A DNA stretch of 64,000 nt from Terrimicrobiaceae bacterium (lineage in GTDB: Bacteria > Verrucomicrobiota > Verrucomicrobiia > Chthoniobacterales > Terrimicrobiaceae), in NCBI GenBank assembly GCA_041741775.1, contig JBGSJQ010000095.1, positions 4,154 to 68,153 of the forward strand, read 5' to 3'. The position numbers were made by a program, and so were the translations under genes. Positions 12,534 to 37,385 of the stretch are shown piece by piece (positions within the stretch are counted from its first letter, which is position 1; each line of letters begins with the position of its first letter). The notes beneath the pieces were generated by a model. It saw nothing but the letters and a program-made list of their open reading frames with translations. It was not told the DNA's origin and searched no databases.

Positions 12534-13564
12534 CGGGAAGAAAAGATAGGCCGCTGTCTTCGCATGCTCCAGACCCTGTCCCAAACGGCCTGAAAAGTCC
12601 ACAAGGGGTCAGTGGCCATGGCGCGAAACATTGCTCGGCAGGCTGCGGCACGGCTGAGGAACGCCATTGCTCCGGCCGCTTGCAGCCACTGCACAGCCTC
12701 GGCTTGGCGGATTTCCGTGCGCGATGGGTTCAACACCAGCCAGTCTTTCCGTGCGCTGGCGTGAAGGATTGAAAACTCCCGGAATTCCGCGGGCTGGAGG
12801 CCTTGACGAAAATTTTCCAGCATGGCTGAGGTTGCTTTTGAGGGAGGCGCACCGGCGAAATTTTTTCGCCAGGCGGAGCCCGCTGCGACTTGTCCCTCGC
12901 GCTGGGTCGACTCCGAAAATTGGTGGGAGAGTGAATCGCGGCGGTTGCGATAACAAACGAGCCGCTCTGGTAAATTCCCGGCCCGGCCTTGATCCACCAA
13001 GCGTGCCCAGAGCTCCCAGTCCTGACAAATCCGGAAATCCCCGCAATACCTTACCAGCGTCCCGTCAGGTATCTCCCTCCGGAAAAAGACGCCCGTATGG
13101 ATAAATGGATTCTGAAACGGCATCGACCAACGGATGCCGTCATCCGAAAGTGGCACATGAATCAACCCACCATAAGCGCCCCGCTCATCAATGATCCAGC
13201 CGTTAACCCCCAGCAGAACGAGGTCAGGGAATTTTTCCACATGGGCTGACTGAGCTGCGAGCCGACCCGGCAAGGAGAGATCATCCGCATCCTGTCTCGC
13301 AATCCATTGCCCGCGCGCCTCGCTCAACCCTTGGTTGAGGCAAGCGGTTTGGCCGGAATTGGTTTTGTTGCAAAACAGCCGGATCCTCTGGTCGCTCGCT
13401 GCAAATTGCCTCAGAACAGCATCGCTTCCATCAGTCGAAGCATCATCAACAATGACAAACTCAAAGTCTTCCAGTGACTGACGCAGGATGCTTTCAATGG
13501 CAGCCGCAAGAAACCCCCCGCCATTAAAAACCGTCATAAGGACACTGACTTGCGGGGCGCTCAT
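12530..13564 (-). CDS. Glycosyltransferase family 2
   Basis: VSVLMTVFNGGGFLAAAIESILRQSLEDFEFVIVDDASTDGS is the classic GT2 N-terminus. Confidence 0.9.
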   Translation of the reverse strand: MSAPQVSVLMTVFNGGGFLAAAIESILRQSLEDFEFVIVDDASTDGSDAVLRQFAASDQRIRLFCNKTNSGQTACLNQGLSEARGQWIARQDADDLSLPGRLAAQSAHVEKFPDLVLLGVNGWIIDERGAYGGLIHVPLSDDGIRWSMPFQNPFIHTGVFFRREIPDGTLVRYCGDFRICQDWELWARLVDQGRAGNLPERLVCYRNRRDSLSHQFSESTQREGQVAAGSAWRKNFAGAPPSKATSAMLENFRQGLQPAEFREFSILHASARKDWLVLNPSRTEIRQAEAVQWLQAAGAMAFLSRAAACRAMFRAMATDPLWTFQAVWDRVWSMRRQRPIFSSR

Positions 13565-13720: not shown

Positions 13721-14863
13721 TCAGGAGGCAAGCGTCCGTCGGAAAACCTCTTCGTGCCGGTCAAGCCAGCGATCCACTCCTAGCTCACGGACGGCATGTT
13801 CCCTTGCTGCGACGGCCATGGCAGAGTGGTGGCACATCGTGTGCTCGATGGCATCTGCAAGGTCGATTGGATCGCCCGCGAGATCGTGGGTCCAACTTTC
13901 CTGGACAGGGGCAAGGACACCGCATTCGCGGGGCACAAGTTCTTGCAGCCCACCGCTCCTCGTGGCAACAACCGGAACTCCGCAGGCCATCGCCTCAATC
14001 GGCACGGTGGGGCAGGGGTCGTTGAATTTGGTATGTAGAAGAACATGGGCGCTGCGGTAAATTCCAGGCGCCTCGCTTTGCCGAAAGGGTGGAAGGATGG
14101 TCACATGGGATTCAACCCCGCGCATTTCATGCGCGACCTGCGCTTGGGCTCCACGCCAGCGAAACTCCCCTGCAATGATCAGTTTGGCGCTGCGATTTCG
14201 TTTGAGAAGGACGCGCAGCGTGTCGATGGCGGATTTCGTGCGATAGAAGGCATGGCTTGTCCCGGCGGCGAGGATCTGCCAGGTCGCCTCATCCGGCCGC
14301 GTGGCGGCCGGAGAAAAAACGCCGATATCCACGGGATTCAGACAAATTTCCGAAGGGGCCGACGATGGTCCAAGATACCTCTCGGCACCGTCGCGAGAAA
14401 AAGCGCTCTGGTTAACAATATAATCCGCCTGGGAGCGAAGCCAGGCCATGCGCCTGTTGAGCCAAGGATAAGCGTCGCCGTAGCAACCCGGATACGCGAC
14501 CCCGTTTTGATTCCAGATCACCCTCGCTCCGCGCGATTTTGCCGCCGCAACAATTTCCTCCGCATGCGGAGGCAGTGCGCTGCTCACAAGATAAACAAGG
14601 TTGAAATCCAGAAACGCTTCGGGAAACCGCTCTTTCAGCGGAATGAGTTTAATCTCTCCGCCAATCGGCAATCCAGTTTGTCCGCGGCAGGGATCAAGGC
14701 GGCCATAATTGACCTTTGGCGCATCGCCCCCGCAGTTGACCAATCGGGCATTTCGGCGCACGGCCATGCGCGCGGTGGCATGTCGCAGGCAGGAGGTCGC
14801 CTCCCGCAGGGGGAAAATAACCTTCGCGGCAAGGCCGACCGGCTCGACAATACGCGTGATCAT
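13721..14863 (-). CDS. Glycosyltransferase family 4
   Basis: C-terminal DPCPTVPIEAMACGVPVVATRSGGLQELV (GT-B, GT4-type). Confidence 0.85.
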   Translation of the reverse strand: MITRIVEPVGLAAKVIFPLREATSCLRHATARMAVRRNARLVNCGGDAPKVNYGRLDPCRGQTGLPIGGEIKLIPLKERFPEAFLDFNLVYLVSSALPPHAEEIVAAAKSRGARVIWNQNGVAYPGCYGDAYPWLNRRMAWLRSQADYIVNQSAFSRDGAERYLGPSSAPSEICLNPVDIGVFSPAATRPDEATWQILAAGTSHAFYRTKSAIDTLRVLLKRNRSAKLIIAGEFRWRGAQAQVAHEMRGVESHVTILPPFRQSEAPGIYRSAHVLLHTKFNDPCPTVPIEAMACGVPVVATRSGGLQELVPRECGVLAPVQESWTHDLAGDPIDLADAIEHTMCHHSAMAVAAREHAVRELGVDRWLDRHEEVFRRTLAS

Positions 14864-16092
14864 TGGCGCTGGATCTCGTTTTCTGCGCGGGCAATCTCTA
14901 TGGCGCGCTGGAGGACATGGACATTTGTTGTCCCACCCTTTAATGCCACCTCCATAGCGGTCGCAACTCCGGAATGAATTTCAAACGGAAACCGAAACGA
15001 TTGGTGCGCCCGGGCCATGCCGGCAAAAACCATGGAAGAGAGGCATCGCAGCGGAGGTTCGGACTCCGTAGAAAAGCCGTCGTAAGCCGTCAGCAGGGCG
15101 GCAGCCAGGGCCTCGGAAGAGTGCGAACGCAGGGCTTGGGCACGAAGGGCTGAGAAATCCGGTTTTCCTTCCGCCACCCGAGCCAGCAATGCGGCCCCTT
15201 CGACGGGGGTTTCATAGAGCCAGCCCTCCAACAAATCCGCAGCCATGCCGACCCGGGTTGATATCACGGGCCGCCCGGCAAAGAGCCCTTCGAGAACGGA
15301 ATAGGGACCACCTTCCCACCGGGAGGAAATCAGCACGGCATCCAGCGCTCCGTACAAACGGTTCAAATCGCCGCGCGGGAGAATGTTTACCCCAAAGTCA
15401 TCTCCTTGGAGAACCCGGCCAGAAAAGACGAATGGGATGTTGCGATATGTGAGTGCGGCCCGGAGCCAATGGCGTCGTGGCCCGGCCAGAAGGACCTTGA
15501 GCCTCGGGATGAGCTTCCGGGCTTCCTCCACGACTTCCACAAAGCGATCCGGACCCTTTTGGGCCTTCGGGAGCGAGACATCGCGCTCGAGCGAGTCGCG
15601 GTGGAAATTTCCCACGACAAAATCTCCGTCAGAAATCCCCAACTGTCGGCGGACAGCCGCGCGCTCGGCAGGCGGAAGCGGATGGCAAACCTCCGGGTCA
15701 ACAGTGTAGGGGGCGATGGCTGCCGGCAGGCCCAGCTCCAGGAATTGGCCCGCGGCCTCGCGTGAGCGTGCAATCCACAAGTCCACCCGCGAAGCCGCCT
15801 GTTCAAATCCGGGTCTCGTGAGGTAAAAGGCTGGGGGGTTATCAGCAAAACACAGGATCGACTTGCCCTCCAGCGCCCGCGAGCCAGCCTGGAGCAATGG
15901 GGGCCACCAGGCCGAGTGGAGGACGCGTGATCGCGCGAACGAACCTGCGGTGATCCGATCCCCCAAAGCCGCGCGCGCACGGTCCAAGTCTTCATCCAAC
16001 GCCCAACCGATCCCCTGCGCCCCAAAAAAATGGATGAGTGGTTTCAAGGGGAGCAGACAAGTTGTTGAACGATCCGGCGATAGGCCGCACAC
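14860..16092 (-). CDS. Glycosyltransferase family 4
   Basis: SSRWEGGPYSVLEGLFAGRPVISTRVGMAADLL. An alternative TTG start at 16047 (LKPLIHFFG...) would give a TTGA overlap with the upstream stop at 16044-16046. Confidence 0.8.
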   Translation of the reverse strand: MCGLSPDRSTTCLLPLKPLIHFFGAQGIGWALDEDLDRARAALGDRITAGSFARSRVLHSAWWPPLLQAGSRALEGKSILCFADNPPAFYLTRPGFEQAASRVDLWIARSREAAGQFLELGLPAAIAPYTVDPEVCHPLPPAERAAVRRQLGISDGDFVVGNFHRDSLERDVSLPKAQKGPDRFVEVVEEARKLIPRLKVLLAGPRRHWLRAALTYRNIPFVFSGRVLQGDDFGVNILPRGDLNRLYGALDAVLISSRWEGGPYSVLEGLFAGRPVISTRVGMAADLLEGWLYETPVEGAALLARVAEGKPDFSALRAQALRSHSSEALAAALLTAYDGFSTESEPPLRCLSSMVFAGMARAHQSFRFPFEIHSGVATAMEVALKGGTTNVHVLQRAIEIARAENEIQRQ

Positions 16093-28374: not shown

Positions 28375-28587
28375 TCAGCGCCACTCCAGCTTGTCGATGA
28401 TGATGTCAAATTCCGCCAGCTTCGCGTGGGCGGCCTTGACGGCGCAAGCCACGGACTCCGGCGTTTTTTCTTCTGCCGAAAAGACACCCATGGAAAACCC
28501 ATGGCGCTCTTTCATGCCGGGCTTCCGCCAATGAAAGAACGCCCGGACACGGAACGGGCCCAGCGCAATATTGTCAGATCCGCTCAC
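28375..28587 (-). CDS. Small hypothetical protein (70 aa) directly downstream of the radical-SAM pair
   Basis: ORF starts 6 nt after the stop of the HemN-like gene and its codon usage looks coding. No family recognised. Confidence 0.5.
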   Translation of the reverse strand: MSGSDNIALGPFRVRAFFHWRKPGMKERHGFSMGVFSAEEKTPESVACAVKAAHAKLAEFDIIIDKLEWR

Positions 28588-28593
28588 GAGCGA

Positions 28594-30147
28594 TCACTCG
28601 AAAACTCCGTTGTTCAAATACGGATTCAGTGGACCTTCCTCATACTGGTCGCGGGGGTAGGGAATGAAGTCGGTATGGTGAAATTGTTGGGCAACTTCAT
28701 CGGCAAAAAAGGCGCCAAGGGGTGTCAACTCAATGGCGCGGTCGGTCTTCTTCAGGAGCCCGTGGGCCTCCAATTCAGCAAACTTCTTCTGAAAGACCTC
28801 ATTGAGATCGAGACCCGTGAGACGGCGGTAATTCGACGGCCGCACATTCCGGTTTTTGATCGGGAGGACGATGGCCCAGCGGGCCTGGTCCTCCGGCGTG
28901 CGGATGTAGCCACGGTTGATCGGCAGGTGACCGCTTTCCACCAGGGCGTAATACTCGTCAAAGTTCTGTGTCGGCAGCGAAAACCGATCCCGCAGGCTGC
29001 TGAACGCGGTCAGGCCGATCCCGATCTGGTCAAATTGCACACAGCACTGGTTGTGGGCATAGACGGAATAATCCCCCCGGCGTCGGGAGAACACGCGTCG
29101 CAAATTCTCCGTGTAGCCGTAATGGCCGAGCATCTCAATCGCCGACTGCTTCATGATGAATTGATCCTCGTTTGGAGGATACTCCTCGGGCTTGACTTCG
29201 ATGTAGTTTTTCACCGCACCCTGGTGGTCGCCATAGGCCTCGACTTTCAGGCGGTAAAGCTGGATCTCATGCACGCCGAGCTGACAAGCCTCCTCGACCA
29301 CATCCAGCCAGTTTTCGAGGGTCTGGCCGAGATAACCGAAGATGAACTCGATGTTGATCTGGAATCCGGCAGCAAGGGTTTCCTTGATCGCCTGGAACGC
29401 CTCGTCCCGACCATGATGCCGCCCCATTTTTTTCAGCACGGTGGGGTTGAGCGACTGGACGCCGATCGTCAGCCTGTCCACCCCGTATTCCCTCATGATC
29501 TCAAGCCTTTTCTCGCCTTCGGGTCCAATCAGGGTGTTCGGATCAACATCAAAATTGAACTGGCGACAGATGGAAAGGTCGATCCGCTCGCAGAATCCGT
29601 CCATGAACCGTCGGAATTGATCCACCGTCAAGAATGTGGGGGTGCCCCCGCCAACCAGGACAGATCGCGCTTTGATCTTGTCAACGCCCAGCTTCTCCCG
29701 CCAGATATCCATCTCCCGCATAAATGCCTTCAGATACCTGTCCTTTTCCTCAAGCCGGGGCCCCAGAAGGACCGGGTAATGACAAAAAACACAGTGGGAA
29801 TTGCAGAACGGGATGTGTGCATAGACATCCAAAACGCCATCCGGTGGAAGGGTGTATCCGTCCAAAAGCTCATCATCCGTCATCGGCGGATACATCGTGA
29901 TCGGCGGATAATGGACCGAGGGATAAAAATCGCCGTCTTTTTGCAGCAATCCGAGGGACCGCAAATGCTTGAAATCGCTGATCCGACTCCGGGCCCGCTC
30001 GATTAACTGCCGGCGATCCAGAGGCCCCCTGTCCGGCATCGGTGGCGGCGGTTCGTGCGGGAGGAGAAGACGCGGGTTGATTGGCGGACGATCGATCGAT
30101 GCCAGCCGGGCCCAGCCGGAAACGGGTTCTAGGATTGAGCTGCTCAT
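28594..30147 (-). CDS. Radical SAM protein, HemN/HemW (coproporphyrinogen III oxidase-like) family with an N-terminal extension of roughly 100 aa
   Basis: VYAHIPFCNSHCVFCHYP (CxxxCxxC), GGGTPTFL, and a HemN_C-like tail. 517 aa, versus roughly 380-460 aa for typical family members. Confidence 0.85.
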   Translation of the reverse strand: MSSSILEPVSGWARLASIDRPPINPRLLLPHEPPPPMPDRGPLDRRQLIERARSRISDFKHLRSLGLLQKDGDFYPSVHYPPITMYPPMTDDELLDGYTLPPDGVLDVYAHIPFCNSHCVFCHYPVLLGPRLEEKDRYLKAFMREMDIWREKLGVDKIKARSVLVGGGTPTFLTVDQFRRFMDGFCERIDLSICRQFNFDVDPNTLIGPEGEKRLEIMREYGVDRLTIGVQSLNPTVLKKMGRHHGRDEAFQAIKETLAAGFQINIEFIFGYLGQTLENWLDVVEEACQLGVHEIQLYRLKVEAYGDHQGAVKNYIEVKPEEYPPNEDQFIMKQSAIEMLGHYGYTENLRRVFSRRRGDYSVYAHNQCCVQFDQIGIGLTAFSSLRDRFSLPTQNFDEYYALVESGHLPINRGYIRTPEDQARWAIVLPIKNRNVRPSNYRRLTGLDLNEVFQKKFAELEAHGLLKKTDRAIELTPLGAFFADEVAQQFHHTDFIPYPRDQYEEGPLNPYLNNGVFE

Positions 30148-30162
30148 AGGTTTTTTTGGTGG

Positions 30163-31227
30163 TTAGATTAAGGGAGCCGGGCCGAGCTTCAAACCCGCGC
30201 GACGGGCAAGATCACCCATGCGTTTCTCTCCGGGAGTGCAGCGCTCGGTGGAGTAAATCGGGAACAGTTCCCGGAAATTCTCCGGTGTCCCGTCATGGAT
30301 TGTGACCGTGTTTGCACCGGCCATGAGGCCGATCAACTGGCCATCATCACGCGCCTTTTGCAGGCAGCTCGTTGTGGGAATGAGCCGACCGGGCTGCATG
30401 ATCCTCATCACCGCCATCATGTTGAAGACAAGGTCCACGTCTCCCATCGCCTGATCATTGTAAAGGCATCCTTCATTCGGAATGAACACCGTGGAACTCG
30501 TCATCGCAACATCAACATCCCGAAGTAAAAGGAGGTCGTCCACAATGGCGTCGAGCGACTGTCCGGGAAGCCCGATCATGTTCCCCGTTCCCACTTTGAA
30601 CCCCAGATCGATGAGGTCGTTGAGACAAGCCAGTCGCTGGTCGAGCGTGTCGGAGGGCTTCCACGCATGGTAAAGCTCGGGGCTGGAGGACTCGAACTTC
30701 AAGATGTAGCGGTCCGCTCCCGACTCCTTGAGAAACAGATACTGCTCCCGGCTCAGGTTGCCGAGGCAAAGGATGATCTCGCTGTCCGGATGCTTTGACT
30801 TGATCCCCGAAATGCATCGGGCCACATACGCGACGAAGGCCTTCGAATGGTTTTCTCCCGACTGAAAAAGAAAAACCCTCCGCCCTTTCCCATACAATAA
30901 GTCTGCCATTTCGAGAACATCAGCCTCCTTGATCACATAGCGCTTCAGATCGGCCTCTTTATACATGCTGCAATATTTGCAGCTTTGCTGGCAGACATTG
31001 GAAAGCTCGATCACGCTGCGAACTTCCACTTCCTCCGAAGGAAAGGCCGAACTCCGCGCTGCTCTTGCCATCGCAAAAAGAATCTCCTGCTCCTCTCCCC
31101 GGAGCAGGAGAGCTTCGGTAAGAGAGCCTCTGGAAAAATTTCCCATGGAAAGCTCCTCCAAGCACCCGGCATTTTTATGACCTAGATCAATCATTTTGTG
31201 ATGGAATAATATTTTTCGTAAGGGCAT
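30163..31227 (-). CDS. Radical SAM protein, BioB/HydE/PylB-like
   Basis: ELSNVCQQSCKYCSMY (CxxxCxxC), FLFQSGE, GADRYILKFESS and GTGNMIGLPGQS match the HydE/BioB-type TIM-barrel radical SAM pattern. Confidence 0.85.
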   Translation of the reverse strand: MPLRKILFHHKMIDLGHKNAGCLEELSMGNFSRGSLTEALLLRGEEQEILFAMARAARSSAFPSEEVEVRSVIELSNVCQQSCKYCSMYKEADLKRYVIKEADVLEMADLLYGKGRRVFLFQSGENHSKAFVAYVARCISGIKSKHPDSEIILCLGNLSREQYLFLKESGADRYILKFESSSPELYHAWKPSDTLDQRLACLNDLIDLGFKVGTGNMIGLPGQSLDAIVDDLLLLRDVDVAMTSSTVFIPNEGCLYNDQAMGDVDLVFNMMAVMRIMQPGRLIPTTSCLQKARDDGQLIGLMAGANTVTIHDGTPENFRELFPIYSTERCTPGEKRMGDLARRAGLKLGPAPLI

Positions 31228-31271
31228 TTTGTATCGGGGTCAACAGTTATTCGAGAAAAAGGGGATATTTT

Positions 31272-32165
31272 TCAGGCGGGTGCGTAGGCGAAGCAGAGAA
31301 GCACGACACCGAGAGTGGCGACCACAGCCCCGGCTATATCGCGCGCGAAGATCTTCTCCTTGAGGATGGTTGCGGCCAGAGGCAGGACGAGGATGGGTTC
31401 GAGAGAAAGGAGGCTGTTGGCCGGGGCCACATCGAGGTTTTTTACGGCGACCAGAGAAAGCCAGAATCCAGCGAAGGTGATGACGCAGACCGAAAGGATA
31501 AATGGCACCGCGAGTCCCTGCTTGGAGAACGAGGCGGCGGCGGACCCGAGCTGGCGCCTGGCTCCGAGCCAAAGCGACAGGCCGATGAAACCGGCGGACA
31601 TTCTCAGAAAAGTTCCCTCCAGAGCCGAGACCTCAGAAAGAGCCCCCTTTGCCATCACCATCGAAGCCGACATGCAACCGGACGCAAGGAGGCCGTAGAG
31701 GATGCCTTTCCGCGTGGCCGCCTGGGATAATCCACGTTCCTTTGGCCAGAGGACCAGAGACACGCCGCACAGGATGAAAGCCATGCCGATCCAAGCCATG
31801 AGGGCAGGGGTTTCTCCAAGAAACAACATAGCGAGGACCGCAGTGATCACTTGGCCAACCGTGAGAAAAATGACGAGGATTTGGGGGGAGAGCTCCCTCA
31901 AGGCCGCAAAGAAAAGGACATCCGCCACGGCAATCCCCACGATTCCGCTGGCGGCAAGCAACGCAGCATCCGGAAGAGACGGGATTCTCCCGCCAGCGAG
32001 AAGAAGCCCCGCCCCTAAAAACACAACGCTCAGAGCGCACTTTCCAAAGGCCATCACAACCGGAGACAAGCTTTCTCCAAGGCGCTTGAAAAGAATTGCT
32101 CCGACCGCCCATCCGAGTGCCGAACCCAGCCCGGCCGCGATTCCCATCATTTCCCGAGTCATCAT
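31272..32165 (-). CDS. DMT superfamily (EamA-like) transporter
   Basis: 297 aa, about 10 predicted TM helices, duplicated EamA pattern (GSALGWAVGAILFKRLG...). Confidence 0.85.
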   Translation of the reverse strand: MMTREMMGIAAGLGSALGWAVGAILFKRLGESLSPVVMAFGKCALSVVFLGAGLLLAGGRIPSLPDAALLAASGIVGIAVADVLFFAALRELSPQILVIFLTVGQVITAVLAMLFLGETPALMAWIGMAFILCGVSLVLWPKERGLSQAATRKGILYGLLASGCMSASMVMAKGALSEVSALEGTFLRMSAGFIGLSLWLGARRQLGSAAASFSKQGLAVPFILSVCVITFAGFWLSLVAVKNLDVAPANSLLSLEPILVLPLAATILKEKIFARDIAGAVVATLGVVLLCFAYAPA

Positions 32166-32177
32166 AGAAATTACCGA

Positions 32178-32765
32178 CTATCCCTGCGGCGGACCGCCTC
32201 CGGGAGGTCCTCCGCCGGGACCGCCCTGGGAACCGCCGCCGGATCCCTGGGAAGGCTGCGAAGGGGCCTGCTGGCCGTTGTCATCCTTTTTTTTATGCTT
32301 CTTCCCCTTCTTCGGCTGGTTCTGTTCTCTCTGTTGAGCAGGTTGAGCACCGCCACGGAACAAGTTGGGTGATTGCGAGTTGACCGCACCGGAAATTGCC
32401 GCCGCCAAAAAAGGTGCCGCCGCTCTCCCGAAATCCGGATTGGACGGGCCGGGATTTCCCGCATGCCGGGGCGGGGGAGGAGCGTAGCGCGGTTGTTGAA
32501 CGATATACCCGGTCGGAGGTCCGGGGTAGCGCAGCTGTGGGTTCCCGTTGTAAGGGTTCGGCCCCCTACCCGGAGGTGGTGGCACATAGCGGCCGGGACG
32601 TACGTAAAGAGCTCCTCCGGTGCCGCGCACAGACTTCACGGGCACAGACACTCCTGCGGGGATCTCGGAGAAATAACTCGGAGGCAGCTCGCACGATGCC
32701 AACAAGAGTCCCGCGCAGGAAAGACCTACCCAGTATAACGGGTCCACGGCGCGTCCTTCATTCAT
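32178..32765 (-). CDS. Pro/Gly-rich lipoprotein with a basic Lys cluster and a GGPGGGPPGGGPP tail
   Basis: Signal peptide plus lipobox (GLLLASC). The mature part is low-complexity, P/G/Q-rich. Confidence 0.55.
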   Translation of the reverse strand: MNEGRAVDPLYWVGLSCAGLLLASCELPPSYFSEIPAGVSVPVKSVRGTGGALYVRPGRYVPPPPGRGPNPYNGNPQLRYPGPPTGYIVQQPRYAPPPPRHAGNPGPSNPDFGRAAAPFLAAAISGAVNSQSPNLFRGGAQPAQQREQNQPKKGKKHKKKDDNGQQAPSQPSQGSGGGSQGGPGGGPPGGGPPQG

Positions 32766-32786
32766 ACAACTCCCGTCAGCGAAAGA

Positions 32787-33065
32787 TCAATACGGCCCGG
32801 GTCCGCCAAATCCCGGTCCACCACCAGGACCTCCTGGGCCCGGTCCGCCAAATCCCGGCCCACCACCTGGACCTCCTGGGCCCGGTCCGCCAAATCCCGG
32901 CCCACCACCTGGACCTCCTGGGCCCGGTCCGGGACCTGGGCCAGGTCCCACAAGTGCTGCGGGGCCAGGTCCCACGGGGCCGGGAGGAATTACCCAAGGT
33001 TCACAGGACGTAAGAAGAACAGGAACCAAAACGGCTCCAATGAGGATAGGGACGTCAATTTTCAT
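32787..33065 (-). CDS. Small lipoprotein consisting almost entirely of Gly/Pro, with 3 x GGPGPGGPGGGPGF repeats
   Basis: Internal ATG at 33065 gives MKIDVPILIGAVLVPVLLTSC (lipobox L-T-S-C), then G/P repeats to the stop (92 aa). Confidence 0.55.
   Translation of the reverse strand: MKIDVPILIGAVLVPVLLTSCEPWVIPPGPVGPGPAALVGPGPGPGPGPGGPGGGPGFGGPGPGGPGGGPGFGGPGPGGPGGGPGFGGPGPY
32794..32919. repeat. Three 42-bp tandem repeats (copies 2 and 3 identical) plus a partial fourth copy
   Basis: Read directly: unit gggcccggtccgccaaatcccggcccaccacctggacctcct at 32836-32877 and 32878-32919. The first copy (32794-32835) has a few substitutions. Confidence 0.9.
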
Positions 33066-34188
33066 GAGTGGGATTTTTTCGAAATGGTGGTGCGCCCTGA
33101 TCAGCATTCGCGACCTCGGTCTGGTCGGCCTGAAAGACCAACATGTATCGCTGGGGGATAAATTGTTGCGTGTCGACAAGACGGAAACCATATTTGGCGA
33201 GCTGGCCAATGATCAGTTCCTTGGCGATGTAGGGTCCGTGGTAGGGAAGGTTCGAGTCGGCAACGAGTGCATTATCCACCACGACGAAGCGACCCCCGGG
33301 TTTTAGCGCCTTTTTGATGCTGCCAAGGAATCCCGTCAACTCATCCTCTGAGGCCAGCACATACATGATGTGGTAGAGCGAGCACGTCCAAACGAGATCG
33401 ACCTGCGTCTTGAGCCCAATGTTGTCAAGGGCAGATGATGAGACCTCCACGTTCTTGAGTCCGGATCGCCGGGCCAGATCCCGCAAATACTTGACGTGGA
33501 CCTCGTTGATGTCGAGGGCATACACGTGGCCCTCGGCCCCGACTTGCTTCGCAAAAGCAAAGGTATAGAAGCCCGGACCGCAGCCGACGTCCGCGACGGA
33601 ATCTCCTGGTTTGAGTTTGAGCGCGGCGAGAAATTTCGAAGATTGCTCCCAAGCCTCCCGTCTCGGGTTGTTGAAAAGCACATAATCCTGAAGGAAGGCT
33701 TCCCGGCGGACCGCCTCAAATGTATTTTCGTCGCCCAGCTTGCCAAGGTGGTATTTACGGAGCAGGAATTCCTGCAGAAGCTCGTAGTTGTTGCCTCCGA
33801 GGAAGGAATAGTATTCGGAGGTCAGGGGATCTGTGAGCATCGCTTGCCGTTCGGCCTCAGGAACACTGATAATATTGCTGAACCACTGGAGCGCGGTGTA
33901 TTCTCCACCAAAATTCTCGTTCGGGATGAGACTCTCGTAAATGGCGGACGCCTTTTCAGCGGCCTCCTTGTCCCCGGTCCTGACAGCGTCGAGGAGGAGG
34001 CGGGCAGCCGTGATCCCGCCCTCGGTCGTGTCGAAGGAATCGATGCTGCCGAGGTGGACGAGCGATGCGCGGGAGTCCACCCAGATACCCGGCTCGCCCC
34101 TTGCAGAGAACATGAAATACGACGTCCCGAGAAGAGCCAGAATGGCGGCTCCCTTGGGGAAGTCTTTGGGTGCAAAGCGTCCCTTCAT
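33055..34188 (-). CDS. Class I SAM-dependent methyltransferase with an N-terminal signal anchor and a conserved ~200-aa N-domain
   Basis: ADVGCGPGFYTF (motif I), ALKPGGRFVVVD. N-terminal hydrophobic segment AAILALLGTSYFMF. Paralog of 34327-35574. Confidence 0.8.
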   Translation of the reverse strand: MKGRFAPKDFPKGAAILALLGTSYFMFSARGEPGIWVDSRASLVHLGSIDSFDTTEGGITAARLLLDAVRTGDKEAAEKASAIYESLIPNENFGGEYTALQWFSNIISVPEAERQAMLTDPLTSEYYSFLGGNNYELLQEFLLRKYHLGKLGDENTFEAVRREAFLQDYVLFNNPRREAWEQSSKFLAALKLKPGDSVADVGCGPGFYTFAFAKQVGAEGHVYALDINEVHVKYLRDLARRSGLKNVEVSSSALDNIGLKTQVDLVWTCSLYHIMYVLASEDELTGFLGSIKKALKPGGRFVVVDNALVADSNLPYHGPYIAKELIIGQLAKYGFRLVDTQQFIPQRYMLVFQADQTEVANADQGAPPFRKNPTHEN

Positions 34189-34326
34189 AAAAACCGGGAT
34201 TTTTCAACGCATTTCCATTCAGGGCTCATTGGACGCCTTCCGTTTATTCCTTGGGACGTGCTAAATCAAACACATTTTCGGCAGATTTGCCTCGTCTTTT
34301 TCAAATATATTCCTCTAACAAGGCGG

Positions 34327-35574
34327 ATGATGAAACTCCCGGCTTTCACCGCACTGGCTCTCTTCTGCGCTACAGTGCTCCCGAGCGCACACGTCCTCTC
34401 GCAATCCACGGCGCCGACTCCGGCCCCGAGCGGCAGCGTTTTTGTGCCGATCACCTCCAGGGCCTCGCTTATCGCGTTTCCCAATCACCAAAAGCCCATC
34501 GTTTCAAAAGCAGGCTCGAAGGCGGCGGCGGTTTTTTACGAAGCCCTCGACACGGGGGACAAGGCGAAAGCGGCGGAAGCCCACGCCCTGTTCCGCGGGC
34601 TTGTGGAGAAGGAGTCGTTTGGCAATGAATACCTCGCTTTCATTTGGTTCTGCGACTACCTGATGGCCGGGCCGGACGCGCGCAAGGCCATGCTCACCGA
34701 CCCTATCACCAAGGCCTATTTCGAATTCCTGGGCGGCGACAACTTCAAGATCCTCAAAATCTATCTTCGGACGTCGTTCGGCGTCGCGGGAAAAGGGGCT
34801 GTGGCCGAGGCTGAACCTTCGCCGGGATCCGACCAGCCCGAGCCTGTTAAGAAACTGCGCGTGCTTTTTGGCTTGGAGCCTGCACGGGTTACCCCGGCCG
34901 ACGAACACAAGGAGGAGAATGCCACGCCCGACCTGCCCCCGCCCCGCGAAGTGGTTGGCGGGGTCAGCGAAGAGGACGTCGCCTTCTGGCGTGATTTCAT
35001 TCTTTTCAACAACCCTCTGCGCCCAGTGTGGGAAAAAACCGACGGCATCCTGAACCTCGTTCATATCCAGCCCGGCGAAACCGTGCTTGATATCGGATGC
35101 GGCCCCGGGTTCTTTTCCATGCGCTTCTCGAAAATGGTCGGCCCGGACGGAAAAATCTTTGCCATCGACACGAATGAAAAGCACCTCGAGTTTTTAGCCA
35201 CCCTGATCTCCAGCACGGGCGCGAAAAATATCGAGACGGTCCGGTCGAAATTCGACGACGTTTGCGTGCCGGAGCATAGTGTGGACCGCGCGTTTATGTG
35301 CTCGCTCTACAGCGTCATCTACATCGTTTCCATGGAGCAGGTGAAAGATCGTTTCATTGCCAGCATCCGAAAGGCGCTCAAGCCGGGCGGAAAGCTGATC
35401 ATTGTGGACAATAATGCGGTCGTTCCGGAAGGAGTCGTCCCCTACCATGGCTCCCGGATCGAGCCCTCCCTCGTCATCGCTCAATTGTCTCACTACGGGT
35501 TTAAGCTTGTCAACCAGCAGCAAATCATCCCCCAGCGCTATCTCCTCGAATTCGAGCGAGATGCGGCAGATTGA
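34327..35574 (+). CDS. Class I SAM-dependent methyltransferase with a cleavable-type signal peptide (paralog of 33055-34188)
   Basis: Internal ATG at 34327 gives MMKLPAFTALALFCATVLPSAHVLSQ. LDIGCGPGFFSM and ALKPGGKLIIVD. Shared blocks include AMLTDP(L/I)T..Y..FLGG(N/D)N and IPQRY(M/L)L. Confidence 0.8.
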   Translation: MMKLPAFTALALFCATVLPSAHVLSQSTAPTPAPSGSVFVPITSRASLIAFPNHQKPIVSKAGSKAAAVFYEALDTGDKAKAAEAHALFRGLVEKESFGNEYLAFIWFCDYLMAGPDARKAMLTDPITKAYFEFLGGDNFKILKIYLRTSFGVAGKGAVAEAEPSPGSDQPEPVKKLRVLFGLEPARVTPADEHKEENATPDLPPPREVVGGVSEEDVAFWRDFILFNNPLRPVWEKTDGILNLVHIQPGETVLDIGCGPGFFSMRFSKMVGPDGKIFAIDTNEKHLEFLATLISSTGAKNIETVRSKFDDVCVPEHSVDRAFMCSLYSVIYIVSMEQVKDRFIASIRKALKPGGKLIIVDNNAVVPEGVVPYHGSRIEPSLVIAQLSHYGFKLVNQQQIIPQRYLLEFERDAAD

Positions 35575-35576
35575 TC

Positions 35577-36185
35577 CTACCCGCCGCTCACTGCGACGTG
35601 TCCATCGGCATAAACGGCATTCCTTCGACCGGGTCCCTCCGCAGAATCAGAGCTGGCCTGGGTGCTGTAGTGGACACCGTTCCAGTCAATCACGAGCCGG
35701 GCCTGCGAATTCGGGGTGTCCACCAAGGAGCCCCCCTCGATGAGTAGCTTGAGATTCCCGAGCTTGTCGCCGTCGAAGTAGTGCAGCCATTGGTAGCTCG
35801 ATCCGAGTCTGGAATACTGGTTGTAGATGCTGTTCACATCGGCTGGGCATTTCAATGTTTCCTTGGTGAGCCCGTAGGGAGACAGCTTTTCGAGAAAAAG
35901 TGCTCCGTAGCCAGGATCGGCCGTGTTCGGCATGCCCGTCGGGATCTCATTCCCGTTGTCCTGCGTGCACAGCAGGGCCGCCATGCCGATCTGTCGAAGA
36001 TTGCCAAGGCACTTCGCGTTCCATGACGCTTCGTAAATCCTTTGAAGATTCGGAAAAACCATGGCGATGAGCACCCCGATGATCGCCAGAGTGATGAGCA
36101 TCTCCACCAGCGTGAAACCTCGCCGGAAACAGGCGGCAAAATCGGAAGCCCTATTCACTTGAGCCTTTTTTTTCAAGATAAGCAT
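35577..36185 (-). CDS. Prepilin-type N-terminal domain protein with a C-terminal H-X9-DG motif (DUF1559-like pseudopilin)
   Basis: RRGFTLVEMLITLAIIGVLIAMVFP, and the C-terminus HYSTQ...NAVYADGHVAV. An alternative GTG start at 36158 would remove the 35-nt overlap with the upstream gene. Confidence 0.8.
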   Translation of the reverse strand: MLILKKKAQVNRASDFAACFRRGFTLVEMLITLAIIGVLIAMVFPNLQRIYEASWNAKCLGNLRQIGMAALLCTQDNGNEIPTGMPNTADPGYGALFLEKLSPYGLTKETLKCPADVNSIYNQYSRLGSSYQWLHYFDGDKLGNLKLLIEGGSLVDTPNSQARLVIDWNGVHYSTQASSDSAEGPGRRNAVYADGHVAVSGG

Positions 36186-37233
36186 CGAAAAATTCCGATC
36201 GCTGTGTCGGGTCCATCGTTGATTCCAGGTTTTCAATATACCTCTCGGCGCTGTTCTCGCCCGAGCTTCCCGGCGGTGATCCCTCCCCACCCGATCCGCC
36301 GGGAGGCGGACCGCCGCCCGGACCACCCGGAAGCTGGATTTTCTGCGAAAAGATGGCGGCCTGCTCGGGCGGGGGTAATTCCTTAAGCGTTTCGAGAAGA
36401 GCCTCCATTTCGGCGATTTTCTCGTTCGCCTCTGCCCTGCGGTTGGCAGGCAGTTCGCCAATCCGGCTTTTCAGAAACGCGACGATCTCGTGCGGGTTGG
36501 GCGGCCCTCCGCCGTTCTGGTCGCGGGTTCCTCCAGGCGGCGGAGGCGGAGGCGGTCCTCCTCCCGGGCCGCGGGGATGGTCCGGTCCGCCGGGCCCCCC
36601 CTCACCCCGGGCGATCAGCATGGCGCACTCCTTACACTTCATGCCGGAACTCTTCGCAAGGCTGCGAAGCACGCGGTCCACAGTGCCAGAAGCTGGCGGC
36701 TTGGCGACCGGAATGGCGCCGTCACCTGAGAGCATAATGCAGAGCCCGGTATGCACGCTCGCCTGCTCCAAATAGGCGGCAATGGTGCCGTCGGTCTCCG
36801 GCTCGACAACCCACTCGTCAACTTTCGGATGGACCTTCGGTGGTCCGACCATCGGGCCCTGAAGTTGAAACCACGTGCCTTGGAACGCTCCCTTTTCCCA
36901 GGATTCCAAAGAATCGTTCAATGCCTTGGAATTCGGGGCGAACGCGTAAGCGATACGAAACTCGGCTCTGACGGCCCCTCCCAAGGCCCGGAGGGCATTC
37001 AGGACCGGAGCCCTGACCAGCTGCAATGTAACGGGGGTGGCCGGGTCGAGGTTCGACCGGATGTGTATCTTTCCCTGGTGCTCGAACGAGCGGATCACCT
37101 CCGCCAGCGGCATCCCGCTCGCGTTGATCGTGATCGTCCGGGGAGCGAGAACCCCAGAGGCGAGTATCCCCACAAGCACAAGGAGAACAAAAAAAAGAAC
37201 CCAGGTGCGCCGCTGATTTGCTTTGGCTATCAT
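36151..37233 (-). CDS. Membrane-anchored protein with an STN/secretin-N-like domain and two Gly/Pro-rich linkers
   Basis: Internal ATG at 37233 (MIAKANQRRTWVLFFVLLVLVGILASG). ITINASGMPLAEVIRSFEHQGKIHI...VTLQLVRAPVLNALRAL resembles STN-type domains. Linkers are GGPGGPDHPRGPGGGPPPPPPPGG and PGGPGGGPPPGGSGG. Confidence 0.6.
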   Translation of the reverse strand: MIAKANQRRTWVLFFVLLVLVGILASGVLAPRTITINASGMPLAEVIRSFEHQGKIHIRSNLDPATPVTLQLVRAPVLNALRALGGAVRAEFRIAYAFAPNSKALNDSLESWEKGAFQGTWFQLQGPMVGPPKVHPKVDEWVVEPETDGTIAAYLEQASVHTGLCIMLSGDGAIPVAKPPASGTVDRVLRSLAKSSGMKCKECAMLIARGEGGPGGPDHPRGPGGGPPPPPPPGGTRDQNGGGPPNPHEIVAFLKSRIGELPANRRAEANEKIAEMEALLETLKELPPPEQAAIFSQKIQLPGGPGGGPPPGGSGGEGSPPGSSGENSAERYIENLESTMDPTQRSEFFDAYLEKKGSSE

Positions 37234-37385
37234 AGAATTTTTCTCGTGCCTGTTATGGACTGTTGAGCTGGAGTGGGCCTGGATATGTGGAAGATGAGCG
37301 CGACCCGATGGAAGCCAGCAAGAGTGGCGGGCAACCATTCGCCGTCTCTGGCATCGTTCGGATAGGCTCTCATTTGATTTGATGA

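What the first reader, a model, noticed from the sequence alone, without database searches (positions are those of the whole stretch)
28375..32165. Orphan radical-SAM pair (HydE/BioB-like + extended HemN-like) with an EamA transporter and a 70-aa protein inside a glycan operon
Four co-directional genes are separated by only 6-44 bp. They are an EamA/DMT transporter, a 354-aa BioB/HydE-type radical SAM enzyme (CQQSCKYC), a 517-aa HemN-family radical SAM enzyme (CNSHCVFC) with an unusual N-terminal extension of roughly 100 aa, and a 70-aa protein of no recognisable family. None of the usual partners appear anywhere in the window: no HydA/HydF/HydG, no heme or biotin genes, no SPASM/RiPP maturase signature. 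The block is flanked by glycosyltransferases on one side and by two Gly/Pro-rich lipoprotein genes plus exported methyltransferases on the other. HemN-like enzymes include class C radical SAM methyltransferases, and HydE/PylB-like enzymes perform unusual C-S/C-C chemistry. The pair may therefore install a non-canonical modification on a sugar, a lipid carrier or the adjacent lipoproteins, with the EamA protein moving a small-molecule product or precursor. This is my best candidate for an undescribed system here.
Basis: partly seen in the sequence, partly recalled or inferred. Interest (0 to 1): 0.75.

Follow-up and report, generated by a model that had tools for sequence, protein, structure and literature searches.

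The report
Conserved radical-SAM, exported methyltransferase, transporter module
The two "orphan" radical-SAM genes belong to an uncharacterised gene module, found from cyanobacteria to methanogens, that pairs them with secreted methyltransferases and a membrane carrier and most likely makes and exports a methylated small molecule.

Summary
The four genes are real and lie where stated. They are not an orphan pair, and the glycan genes around them are incidental.

In 84 loci from at least 10 bacterial phyla and Methanomicrobia, the HemN-like enzyme (52-81% identical) sits beside:
- a HydE-like radical-SAM enzyme (73 loci);
- a distinctive class-I methyltransferase with a helical cap, often a tandem fusion (70 loci);
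- an EamA carrier (69 loci).

All four occur together in 55 loci. In the window, the "flanking exported methyltransferases" are these partners, so the module spans about 28375-35574.

The methyltransferase has a signal peptide wherever EamA is present. It has none in the archaeal and Bacillota loci, which also lack EamA and have ABC-2 exporters instead. HemN-like and HydE-like are fused in two loci.

None of the core enzymes reaches the NCBIfam cut-off for HydE, BioB, PylB, HemN, HemW, HutW or ArsM. Sources give only generic names, and seven full-text searches found no description of the module.

The 70-aa gene is real (dN/dS 0.15-0.23 where calculable) but was found only in close verrucomicrobial relatives.

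Best reading: a cytoplasmic radical-SAM pair builds a small molecule, EamA carries it (or SAM) across the membrane, and periplasmic methyltransferases finish it. The product is unknown.

The parts
34327..35574 (+). MT2: exported class-I SAM methyltransferase, paralogue type 2, 415 aa, with a signal peptide (MMKLPAFTALALFCATVLPSAHV). It is transcribed divergently from MT1.
   Evidence: 36% identical to MT1 over 86-91% of its length. It carries the same insertion as the C-terminal halves of the fused MT-MT proteins in other loci. Pfam finds methyltransferase domains.
33055..34188 (-). MT1: exported class-I SAM methyltransferase, paralogue type 1, 377 aa. Layout: signal peptide or anchor, then an all-helical cap (about residues 56-190), then a Rossmann fold.
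   Evidence: 45-46% identical over its full length to the cluster methyltransferases of Calothrix and Thiohalocapsa. Homologues lie in 70 of 84 loci. The AF2 model has pLDDT 86. Family-specific invariant motifs are GGEYTALQW, LFNNPRRExWE, CSLYH, PYHGP and IPQRY.
32787..33065 (-). LP2: small lipoprotein with lipobox LLTSC, followed by a run that is almost purely Gly/Pro.
   Evidence: Sequence. Its start overlaps the end of MT1 by 11 nt. Similar small Gly/Pro-rich lipoproteins lie directly after the HemN-like gene in L046 and L060. The link to the module rests on position and composition only.
32178..32765 (-). LP1: lipoprotein with lipobox LLASC, Pro/Gly-rich, ending in GGPGGGPPGGGPPQG.
   Evidence: Sequence. 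It lies 12 bp upstream of EamA. It has no Pfam family and no homologue in the related loci. Membership in the module is tentative.
31272..32165 (-). EamA/DMT membrane carrier, 297 aa.
   Evidence: Pfam EamA at 126 bits with two repeats. It lies beside the HemN-like gene in 69 of 84 loci. It is present when the methyltransferase has a signal peptide and absent when it has none.
30163..31227 (-). HydE-like radical-SAM enzyme, 354 aa, with the CQQSCKYC cluster motif and a full BioB/HydE-type barrel.
   Evidence: Scores 203.5 bits against NCBIfam HydE, below the 254.6 cut-off. Scores 183 bits against Thermotoga HydE structures, aligned over residues 11-331. It lies beside the HemN-like gene in 73 of 84 loci and is fused to it in L056 and L077.
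28594..30147 (-). HemN-like radical-SAM enzyme, 517 aa, with CNSHCVFC, GGGTP, a HemN_C domain and a family-specific N-terminal segment.
   Evidence: Pfam and NCBIfam results. Homologues 52-81% identical occur across bacteria and Methanomicrobia. In the alignment to E. coli HemN it retains, by my numbering, the positions of Y56, H58, GGGTP, E145 (as D), Q172, R184 and D209 (as E).
28375..28587 (-). 70-aa cytoplasmic protein with a predicted beta-beta-alpha-beta fold. It is the last gene of the string and an accessory found only in close verrucomicrobial relatives.
   Evidence: Relatives in nine related loci (L004-L011, L013) all end in LEWR. Only 9 representative clusters exist among 1.84 billion proteins. 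dN/dS is 0.15-0.23 in the three comparisons where it could be computed. The AF2 model has pLDDT 86 and no structural match. A terminator-like hairpin follows at 28371-28350.

Best explanation
This is an uncharacterised small-molecule biosynthesis and export module.

Proposed steps:
1. In the cytoplasm, the HydE-like enzyme works on a small substrate buried in its closed barrel. HydE/BioB/PylB-type enzymes do C-S or C-C radical chemistry on amino-acid-sized substrates.
2. The HemN-like enzyme, a class-C-type protein with two SAM sites, works with it. It either adds a SAM-derived methyl or methylene group or carries out a HemN-type oxidative decarboxylation. The two enzymes probably form a complex.
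3. In bacteria with two membranes, the EamA/DMT carrier moves the intermediate, the SAM cofactor, or both across the inner membrane.
4. One or two Sec-exported class-I methyltransferases with a helical substrate cap methylate the intermediate in the periplasm.
5. Linked ABC-2, FHA-ABC2 or MacB/HlyD transporters may release the product.
6. In archaea and single-membrane bacteria, the same three enzymes all work in the cytoplasm and an ABC-2 exporter replaces EamA.

Shown here: gene content, conserved linkage, gene fusions, the signal peptides and their correlation with EamA, and the exclusion of named subfamilies.

Inferred: the small-molecule nature of the substrate, the direction of transport, the order of the steps and all of the chemistry. 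The product is unknown.
For: Linkage. HemN-like is found with HydE-like in 73 loci, with the methyltransferase in 70 and with EamA in 69, out of 84. All four occur together in 55 loci. The loci span Verrucomicrobiota, Cyanobacteria, Gamma-, Alpha- and Deltaproteobacteria, Planctomycetota, Acidobacteriota, Bacillota, Omnitrophota, Kiritimatiellia and Methanomicrobia.

Fusions. HemN-like and HydE-like form a single ORF of about 832 aa in L056 and L077. Fused MT-MT proteins are common.

Compartment logic. The raw count is 54 loci with both a signal peptide and EamA, 2 with a signal peptide only, 6 with neither and 4 apparent exceptions (Fisher p = 6e-5). Three of the four exceptions are missed signal peptides and one (L035) is unresolved. 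The six loci with neither are four Methanomicrobia, one Bacillota MAG and L077. One methyltransferase has a lipobox and many have AxA-type cleavage sites.

Export theme. A DrrA-like ATPase and an ABC-2 permease follow the core in the archaeal locus L076. FHA-ABC2 fusions were confirmed by Pfam in L001, L043 and L056, with similar-sized cluster members in about 11 more loci. MacB/HlyD transporters occur in about 12 loci.

Small-molecule indicators:
- HydE-like aligns over the whole barrel of Thermotoga HydE.
- The methyltransferase model has a helical cap plus a Rossmann fold. Its top structural neighbours are the Aquifex methyltransferase 3dh0, then natural-product small-molecule methyltransferases (DnrK, RdmB, PhzM, MmcR) and TehB.
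- EamA/DMT proteins are metabolite carriers (established knowledge).
- No precursor-peptide ORF is conserved across phyla.

Not a named family. All NCBIfam scores are below their cut-offs.
Against: No substrate or product can be named.

No metabolic neighbour or riboswitch gives a clue; Rfam found nothing in the window or in 11 related loci.

A periplasmic SAM-dependent methyltransferase needs SAM outside the cytoplasm. I know of no precedent for this in bacteria, so either the EamA role or the methyltransferase chemistry is unusual.

Lineage-specific secreted proteins sit inside the operons. These are an LTXXQ-repeat protein in 40 loci, Gly/Pro-rich lipoproteins, and clusters 19 and 38. They could be protein substrates rather than helpers.

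Structural similarity of the methyltransferase to natural-product enzymes is weak (TM about 0.42).

The EamA/signal-peptide correlation is not corrected for shared ancestry.

EamA could be an importer.
Confidence: 0.5

Rival explanations
1. This is a protein or peptide maturation system. The radical-SAM enzymes and methyltransferases would modify a co-encoded secreted protein: the LTXXQ-repeat protein, a Gly/Pro-rich lipoprotein, or in this lineage the 70-aa protein. It would be loosely analogous to radical-SAM-matured periplasmic repeat effectors such as the HXS system.
For: A secreted LTXXQ-repeat protein of about 250 aa lies directly beside the HydE-like gene in 40 loci. Gly/Pro-rich secreted proteins recur in 24 loci, and window LP1 and LP2 lie inside the operon. 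ABC and HlyD exporters are typical of RiPP clusters. A periplasmic repeat effector matured by a radical-SAM enzyme has been described (PMC13128918, listed).
Against: No candidate substrate protein is shared by all variants. The archaeal and Bacillota core clusters have none of them, and no small ORF is conserved across phyla. There is no SPASM, twitch or RRE domain. HydE/BioB-type closed barrels take small substrates (established knowledge). The 70-aa protein has no signal peptide and was found only in close verrucomicrobial relatives.
Confidence: 0.15
2. This is modification of a membrane lipid or quinone. A HemN-like class-C methylase (as in MenK/MqnK menaquinone C-methylation) and UbiE-like methyltransferases would decorate a lipid-soluble substrate that is reachable from either face of the membrane.
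For: JGI annotation calls the methyltransferase a UbiE-type C-methylase, and Pfam Ubie_methyltran matches at 40 bits. HemN-like enzymes include C-methyltransferases and cyclopropanases that act on lipophilic substrates (PMC10114718; PMC13459092). A membrane-tethered methyltransferase and ABC-2 (DrrAB-like) exporters suit hydrophobic products.
Against: The module occurs in Methanomicrobiales, which to my knowledge lack respiratory quinones. EamA proteins carry polar metabolites. Many of the methyltransferases have cleavable signal peptides, not anchors. No isoprenoid or fatty-acid genes are conserved nearby. The HydE-like barrel fits a small polar substrate.
Confidence: 0.12
3. This is metalloid or chalcogen (As, Se, Te) transformation. 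Periplasmic ArsM/TehB-like methyltransferases would methylate the element, and the HydE-like enzyme would add an adenosyl group to a heteroatom, as ArsS does to dimethylarsenite.
For: The best NCBIfam hit for MT1 is the arsenite methyltransferase subfamily, and TehB is among both the Pfam and the structural hits. The family has one invariant Cys, in CSLYH. LTXXQ (CpxP/Spy/ZraP-type) envelope-stress proteins lie adjacent. HydE attacks sulfur with the adenosyl radical, and ArsS adenosylates arsenic (PMC10114718; PMC13598754).
Against: The ArsM score is 56 bits against a cut-off of 263. Only one Cys is conserved, whereas ArsM uses several (my knowledge). No ArsS, ArsL or ArsM family appears at a meaningful score for either radical-SAM enzyme. 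No ars genes turned up among the recurrent neighbour clusters, although I did not search for them specifically. This reading gives the HemN-like enzyme no role.
Confidence: 0.08
4. These are ordinary housekeeping enzymes: a HydE hydrogenase maturase or biotin synthase and a HemN/HemW heme enzyme that happen to be neighbours.
For: They are the closest solved or curated relatives. The SAM-binding residues of HemN are retained.
Against: All scores are below the curated cut-offs: HydE 203.5 against 254.6, BioB 94.8 against 225, HemN 142.8 against 325, HemW 123.6 against 205.4. The pair is linked, and in two loci fused, across phyla and always travels with the special methyltransferase. No HydG-, HydF- or HydA-like family or heme family recurs in the neighbourhoods.
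Confidence: 0.03

Closest known systems
HydE, the [FeFe]-hydrogenase H-cluster maturase (Thermotoga maritima structures 3CIW, 4JY8 and others)
   Same: It has a CX3CX2C cluster motif. It aligns end to end over the closed barrel (183 bits; residues 11-331 against 5-322) and its best NCBIfam hit is HydE. It probably keeps the ability to act on a small buried substrate.
   Different: It scores below the HydE equivalog cut-off (203.5 against 254.6). Only the first of the three C-terminal auxiliary-cluster cysteines that I recall in Thermotoga HydE aligns. No hydA, hydF or hydG recurs among the neighbours. The module occurs in cyanobacteria and other lineages beside a HemN-like enzyme and a methyltransferase instead.
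HemN and class-C radical-SAM methylases (E. coli HemN 1OLT; NosN/NocN, ChuW/HutW, Jaw5, MenK-type)
   Same: It has the HemN fold with a HemN_C domain, the YxHxPFCxxxCxFC and GGGTP motifs, and the residues that bind the two SAM molecules in HemN.
   Different: It scores far below the HemN, HemW, HutW, HemZ and STM4012 cut-offs. It has its own conserved N-terminal segment (GDFFPSVHYPPITMYPP), an invariant NQCC motif and a conserved C-terminal tail. It has no heme, thiopeptide or polyketide context.
Natural-product small-molecule methyltransferases with a helical cap (DnrK, RdmB, PhzM, MmcR) and TehB/ArsM-type methyltransferases
   Same: It has an N-terminal helical domain in front of a class-I Rossmann fold, with intact SAM motifs I and II.
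   Different: It carries a Sec signal peptide or lipobox and so is extracytoplasmic in diderm bacteria. The cap has no Pfam family. Structural similarity is weak (TM about 0.42). Many copies are fused in tandem.
DMT/EamA metabolite carriers, including the rickettsial and chlamydial SAM transporters (recalled from memory, not compared here)
   Same: It has the two-repeat EamA architecture and sits in a context of three SAM-using enzymes.
   Different: It resembles no curated EamA equivalog; the best score is 56.7 bits against a cut-off of 230. The direction of transport and the substrate are unknown.

Membership tests
HydE ([FeFe]-hydrogenase maturase, NCBIfam TIGR03956) | Score at or above the curated equivalog cut-off of 254.6 bits | tested here: not met
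   The window protein scores 203.5 bits. The cluster homologues from Calothrix and Thiohalocapsa score 247.4 and 235.4 bits, also below the cut-off.
HydE ([FeFe]-hydrogenase maturase, NCBIfam TIGR03956) | Genomic association with hydA, hydF or hydG | tested here: not met
   No further radical-SAM (HydG-like), GTPase (HydF-like) or hydrogenase family appears among the recurrent neighbour clusters of 84 loci. Presence elsewhere in the genomes could not be tested.
HydE ([FeFe]-hydrogenase maturase, NCBIfam TIGR03956) | CX3CX2C motif and a full BioB/HydE-type barrel | tested here: met
   The motif is CQQSCKYC. The protein aligns at 183 bits with Thermotoga HydE over residues 11-331.
Biotin synthase BioB (TIGR00433) and methylornithine synthase PylB (TIGR03910) | Score at or above the curated cut-off (225 and 348.2 bits) | tested here: not met
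   The scores are 94.8 and 85.1 bits.
HemN, oxygen-independent coproporphyrinogen III oxidase (TIGR00538) | Score at or above the curated cut-off of 324.95 bits | tested here: not met
   The score is 142.8 bits.
HemN, oxygen-independent coproporphyrinogen III oxidase (TIGR00538) | Cluster motif and SAM-binding residues (Y56, H58, GGGTP, E145, Q172, R184, D209 in E. coli numbering, which I derived from the alignment) | tested here: met
   The aligned residues are identical or conservative, with E145 as D and D209 as E.
HemN, oxygen-independent coproporphyrinogen III oxidase (TIGR00538) | Coproporphyrinogen III decarboxylase activity | not testable with these tools
   This needs an enzyme assay or hemN complementation.
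HemW heme chaperone (TIGR00539), ChuW/HutW (TIGR04107) and the STM4012 family (NF006067) | Score at or above the curated cut-off (205.4, 400 and 380 bits) | tested here: not met
   The scores are 123.6, 134.7 and 163.2 bits.
Class-C radical-SAM methylase (functional class within HemN-like proteins) | HemN-like fold with a second SAM site, and methyl or methylene transfer to a substrate | tested here: inconclusive
   The fold and SAM-site residues are present. The NocN structure matches the N-terminal half (90.5 bits with the family profile; 64 bits with the single sequence). Transfer chemistry cannot be tested here.
Arsenite methyltransferase ArsM (NF008823) | Score at or above the cut-off of 263 bits | tested here: not met
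   MT1 scores 56.1 bits, confined to the Rossmann core. Only one Cys is invariant in the family.
EamA/DMT transporter (Pfam PF00892) | Two EamA repeats above the gathering score | tested here: met
   The score is 126.2 bits against a cut-off of 28.2, in two stretches.
RiPP radical-SAM maturase (SPASM/twitch type) | A SPASM or twitch auxiliary-cluster domain, or an RRE, plus a co-encoded precursor peptide | tested here: not met
   No such domain appears in Pfam or NCBIfam. No small ORF is conserved across phyla.
Known anti-phage defence systems (PADLOC) | Core proteins match the models of a defence system | tested here: not met
   The only hit is a generic methyltransferase-domain match of MT1 to mad2. 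There is nothing for either radical-SAM enzyme, EamA, the 70-aa protein or the LTXXQ protein.

The most novel reading that the evidence does not exclude
The module is an extracytoplasmic SAM-dependent methylation system. The EamA carrier would export SAM, or exchange SAM for SAH, to feed Sec-exported methyltransferases acting in the periplasm on a metabolite made by a HydE-like/HemN-like radical-SAM complex. As far as I know, this would be the first bacterial pathway to use SAM in the periplasm, and it would define new reactions for two radical-SAM subfamilies that are conserved from cyanobacteria to methanogens.
Probability: 0.22. Interest if true: 0.85.

Novelty: new variant of a known kind. 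Interest (0 to 1): 0.68.

Why it matters
HydE-like and HemN-like proteins are among the most often mis-annotated radical-SAM enzymes, typically labelled "biotin synthase" or "coproporphyrinogen oxidase".

Here a specific pair is shown to travel together, and sometimes as one fused protein, across more than ten phyla and into archaea. The HemN-like member keeps 52-62% identity outside its own lineage, which suggests a strongly constrained reaction that has not been described.

The link to secreted SAM-type methyltransferases and a DMT carrier raises a concrete, testable question: does SAM-dependent chemistry occur in the bacterial periplasm, and if so how is SAM supplied?

Several cultured carriers make the question experimentally approachable: Calothrix sp. 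336/3, Crocosphaera chwakensis, Allochromatium palmeri, Thiocystis violacea and Bradyrhizobium sp. ORS 111.

The result would also correct the annotation of the family members now carrying generic or wrong names.

Tried and rejected
- **Arsenosugar pathway (ArsS/ArsM).** I followed this through the literature. I rejected it because the methyltransferase is far below the ArsM cut-off and neither radical-SAM enzyme hits an ArsS or ArsL family at a meaningful score. That NCBIfam holds an ArsS model is from my memory.
- **Riboswitch clue.** Rfam at gathering thresholds found nothing relevant in the window or in 11 related loci.
- **Defence system.** PADLOC gave only a generic methyltransferase-domain hit.
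- **Conserved precursor peptide.** Clustering of small intergenic ORFs found only the 70-aa family, which is restricted to Verrucomicrobia.
- **Wider homologues of the 70-aa protein.** An HMM over all loci and a scan of 1.84 billion representative proteins found only nine clusters. Its confident AF2 model has no PDB neighbour with E below 1.
- **LTXXQ-protein homologue in the window.** An HMM search found none.
- **Functional link to the glycan genes.** There are no homologues of the window's glycosyltransferase neighbours in related loci.
- **Literature.** Seven full-text searches found no paper describing the module: for the arsenosugar lead, and for the module itself.
- **Promoter and terminator scan.** Counts were at chance level. 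Only the hairpin after the 70-aa gene is worth noting.
- **Source contig.** Exact-sequence look-ups of the window's HemN-like protein and of NCBI's 481-aa version returned nothing.

Full report

Yes. The minus strand carries four genes:
- EamA, 31272-32165, 297 aa.
- A HydE-like radical-SAM gene, 30163-31227, 354 aa, motif CQQSCKYC.
- A HemN-like radical-SAM gene, 28594-30147, 517 aa, motif CNSHCVFC.
- A 70-aa ORF, 28375-28587, with a GTG start.

The gaps between them are 44, 15 and 6 bp.

Pfam and NCBIfam confirm the superfamilies but no named subfamily:

| Enzyme | NCBIfam family | Score (bits) | Cut-off (bits) |
|---|---|---|---|
| HydE-like | HydE | 203.5 | 254.6 |
| HydE-like | BioB | 94.8 | 225 |
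| HydE-like | PylB | 85.1 | 348 |
| HemN-like | STM4012 | 163 | 380 |
| HemN-like | HemN | 143 | 325 |
| HemN-like | HutW | 135 | 400 |
| HemN-like | HemW | 124 | 205 |

The 70-aa protein matches no family. Glycosyltransferase genes (GT1, GT2, GT9, DUF5672) do flank the block on both sides. Base composition is unremarkable across the region.

**2. The pair is not orphan**

The HemN-like protein has very close relatives in distant lineages. They are 75-81% identical in Chthoniobacterales and Verrucomicrobiaceae MAGs. They are still about 52-62% identical in cyanobacteria, Chromatiaceae, Competibacter, Methylococcales, Alphaproteobacteria, Geobacter and Desulfobulbus, Planctomycetota, Acidobacteriota, a Bacillota MAG, Omnitrophota, Kiritimatiellia and Methanoculleus/Methanomicrobiales.

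Two neighbourhoods recovered by exact look-up already showed the same gene set. These were Calothrix sp. 336/3 and a purple sulfur bacterium carrying the same protein as Thiohalocapsa. The set was HydE-like radical SAM, a methyltransferase of 370-420 aa, EamA and HemN-like.

I then took 80 genome loci and analysed all 84 loci with my own ORF calling and BLAST clustering. HemN-like lies with HydE-like in 73 loci, with the methyltransferase in 70 and with EamA in 69. All four occur together in 55 loci, and many of the gaps coincide with contig ends.

In L056 (Bacillota) and L077, HemN-like and HydE-like are one ORF of about 832 aa. This is a classic sign that two proteins work together.

**3. 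The window's "exported methyltransferases" are the missing partners**

MT1 (33055-34188, minus strand) is 45-46% identical over its whole length to the cluster methyltransferases of Calothrix and the Thiohalocapsa-type locus. The match includes a non-Pfam N-terminal domain of about 150 residues.

MT2 (34327-35574, plus strand) is a paralogue, 36% identical to MT1. It corresponds to the C-terminal half of the fused MT-MT proteins found in many loci and shares their insertion.

In the window, seven genes are packed in one orientation: MT1, LP2, LP1, EamA, HydE-like, HemN-like and the 70-aa gene. The spacing ranges from an 11-nt overlap to 44 bp. A terminator-like hairpin follows the last gene. 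The unit is therefore about 28375-35574, not 28375-32165.

The glycan genes are not part of it. None of the window's GT1, GT9, DUF5672, 159-aa or 222-aa proteins has a homologue in any related locus.

**4. Two layouts**

Variant A is the window type. It occurs in Verrucomicrobiota, Kiritimatiellia and several Chromatiaceae. Its order is EamA, HydE-like, HemN-like, with two methyltransferase paralogues that are usually fused. Its HydE-like proteins are 47-65% identical to the window's.

Variant B occurs in cyanobacteria, Competibacter, Methylococcales, Geobacter, many other Verrucomicrobiota and others. It usually has a single methyltransferase. Its HydE-like proteins are only 33-41% identical to the window's.

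Variant B also carries a secreted protein of about 250 aa made of LTXXQ-type repeats, found in 40 loci. The Calothrix member matches Pfam LTXXQ at 33.8 bits. The window has no homologue of it.

**5. Compartment logic**

Almost every bacterial methyltransferase in the family begins with a Sec-type signal peptide. One has a lipobox, and the alphaproteobacterial ones have a signal peptide followed by a long Gly/Pro linker.

The methyltransferases of the four Methanomicrobia loci, the Bacillota locus and L077 have no hydrophobic N-terminus. Those same loci lack EamA.

The raw count is 54 loci with a signal peptide and EamA, 2 with a signal peptide only, 6 with neither, and 4 apparent exceptions (Fisher p = 6e-5). 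On inspection, three of the four exceptions are missed signal peptides and the fourth (L035) is unresolved. The test is not corrected for phylogeny.

In the loci without EamA the core is followed by a different exporter. In the archaeal locus L076 this is a DrrA-like ATPase plus an ABC-2 permease.

Exporters recur elsewhere too:
- FHA-ABC2 fusions were confirmed by Pfam in Calothrix (L001), a verrucomicrobial locus (L043) and the Bacillota locus (L056).
- Cluster members of similar size occur in about 11 more cyanobacterial and verrucomicrobial loci.
- MacB/HlyD sets occur in about 12 loci.

I infer that EamA is needed because the last enzyme sits on the other side of the membrane.

**6. What the proteins look like**

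HydE-like aligns with Thermotoga HydE across the whole barrel (183 bits). It has only the first of the three C-terminal auxiliary-cluster cysteines. The numbering of that triad is from my memory.

HemN-like is closest to E. coli HemN (143 bits with the family profile) and to the class-C methylase NocN. It keeps the cluster motif, GGGTP and the residues that contact SAM in HemN. It also has family-specific features: an N-terminal GDFFPSVHYPPITMYPP segment, an invariant NQCC and a conserved tail.

About 36 N-terminal residues are specific to Verrucomicrobia. NCBI's gene call omits them (481 aa), but they are conserved in relatives.

The MT1 model is confident (pLDDT 86). It shows a signal or anchor, an all-helical cap and a Rossmann fold with intact SAM motifs. 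Its nearest structures are an uncharacterised Aquifex methyltransferase, then cap-bearing natural-product methyltransferases (DnrK, RdmB, PhzM, MmcR) and TehB. All resemble it only weakly, with TM about 0.42.

All database names for the three enzyme families are generic.

**7. The 70-aa gene**

It is a real gene. Relatives in nine related loci (L004-L011, L013) share a 59-residue core and the C-terminal LEWR. pN is 0.20-0.36 against pS 0.66-0.94. Because synonymous sites are near saturation, dN/dS could be computed for only three of eight comparisons, and was 0.15-0.23.

It is a lineage-specific accessory. An HMM finds it in no other locus, and only 9 representative clusters exist among 1.84 billion proteins.

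Its model is a confident beta-beta-alpha-beta fold with no structural neighbour. It has no signal peptide and sits last in the operon in its lineage. I cannot assign it a role.

**8. Most likely mechanism**

All four protein types point to a small substrate:
- a closed-barrel HydE/BioB/PylB-type enzyme;
- a two-SAM HemN-like enzyme;
- cap-bearing methyltransferases;
- a metabolite carrier.

No precursor peptide is conserved, there is no SPASM or RRE domain, and the minimal archaeal and Bacillota clusters contain only the three enzymes plus an exporter.

I therefore favour a biosynthesis and export pathway (confidence about 0.5). The radical-SAM pair builds or rearranges and C-methylates a small molecule in the cytoplasm. 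EamA carries it, or SAM, or both, across the inner membrane. The exported methyltransferases finish it.

The chemistry and the product are inferred, not shown. A real difficulty is the source of SAM in the periplasm. The most novel reading is that EamA supplies it.

**9. Rival explanations**

- **Protein maturation**, with the LTXXQ or Gly/Pro-rich secreted proteins as substrates. This is suggested by their position in the operons. It is weakened by their absence from the minimal clusters.
- **Lipid or quinone modification.** There is precedent for class-C methylases and the methyltransferase resembles UbiE. It is weakened by the module's presence in Methanomicrobiales and by the cleavable signal peptides.
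- **Metalloid methylation.** The methyltransferase weakly resembles ArsM and TehB, and LTXXQ proteins are envelope-stress proteins. It is weakened by the scores and by giving HemN-like no role.
- **Housekeeping HydE and HemN.** This is contradicted by the cut-offs and by the conserved linkage.

An arsenosugar (ArsS/ArsM) link was followed in the literature and dropped. No riboswitch and no defence-system match was found.

**10. Novelty and verdict**

The building blocks are known superfamilies, and a radical-SAM cluster with a methyltransferase and an exporter is a familiar kind of system. The specific module is not familiar: a HydE-like/HemN-like pair, a new cap-bearing secreted methyltransferase family and a DMT carrier, spread across phyla and domains.

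I found no curated family, source annotation or paper describing it in seven full-text searches. The review of HemN-like proteins notes uncharacterised bacterial clades (PMC10114718).

I rate it a new variant of a known kind, with interest 0.68. It would rise to about 0.85 if periplasmic SAM-dependent chemistry were confirmed.

Noticed in passing
window 32787-33065(-), 32178-32765(-), 36151-37338(-); L046:5517-5708; L060:11524-11769; L079:7943-8449(-); L081:11949-12485(-); L082:12689-13126(-); L083:12404-12976(-); L031:12360-13742; L037:7567-9231; L020:11649-13265: Secreted proteins or lipoproteins with long Gly/Pro runs (GPGGPGG, GGGPP, GPGPGYGPG) lie inside or close to the module in 24 of 84 loci from five or more phyla. 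Sometimes the run is a linker inside the methyltransferase or the tail of a HlyD protein. Because G/P codons are self-complementary, both strands give such ORFs. I measured no genome background rate.
   Followed up: partly
L056:9971-12472; L077:792-3287: HemN-like and HydE-like are fused into one ORF of about 832 aa in a Bacillota MAG and in an unclassified MAG. The same loci have methyltransferases without signal peptides and no EamA.
   Followed up: partly
L001:3246-4058; L003:9422-10222; 40 loci in all: A secreted protein of about 250 aa made of LTXXQ-type repeats (CpxP/Spy/ZraP-like) lies directly beside the HydE-like gene in the cyanobacterial and proteobacterial layout. It is absent from the window and from the archaeal and Bacillota loci.
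   Followed up: partly
L078:7608-8534 and 12103-12660 (also L079, L081-L083, L046, L060, L045): The window-type operons of Chromatiaceae and Kiritimatiellia carry two more secreted proteins with no Pfam family. One, about 310 aa, lies between the MT-MT gene and EamA, in the slot occupied by LP1 and LP2 in the window. The other is a Cys-rich lipoprotein of about 185 aa after the HemN-like gene.
   Followed up: no
window 28594-30147(-): NCBI's own gene call for the HemN-like protein appears to be 481 aa, starting at Met37. The 36 upstream residues are conserved at the protein level in relatives, and the long form leaves only 15 bp to the upstream gene, so the 517-aa form is more likely.
   Followed up: partly
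window 35577-36461(-) and 36151-37338(-); L051:11425-13046: A prepilin-type (N_methyl motif) protein and a Gly/Pro-rich membrane-anchored protein of 395 aa lie next to the methyltransferase genes. A similar pair lies next to the module in another Verrucomicrobiota MAG, with weak homology: 27-31% identity and pairwise E values of 6e-7 and 1e-14.
   Followed up: partly
L008:9562-11436; L011:16930-18993; L012:90-2156; L004:2842-4269(-): Verrucomicrobiaceae loci carry an arylsulfotransferase (ASST)-like lipoprotein with a Gly/Pro-rich C-terminal region within a few kb of the module. Chthoniobacteraceae loci carry a sulfatase and a Gly/Pro-rich protein with a peptidoglycan-binding domain.
   Followed up: no
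L003:7286-7936 and 13852-16082: In the locus carrying the same protein as Thiohalocapsa, the module is flanked by a class-II aldolase-family gene, a HAD hydrolase and an amino-acid permease. An amino-acid permease recurs in about 10 loci. The aldolase could relate to 5'-deoxyadenosine or methylthioadenosine salvage, which is my speculation.
   Followed up: no
L077:3368-3928: A shikimate-kinase-like P-loop protein lies between the HemN-HydE fusion gene and the MT-MT gene in this one locus. I identified it by eye from the sequence.
   Followed up: no
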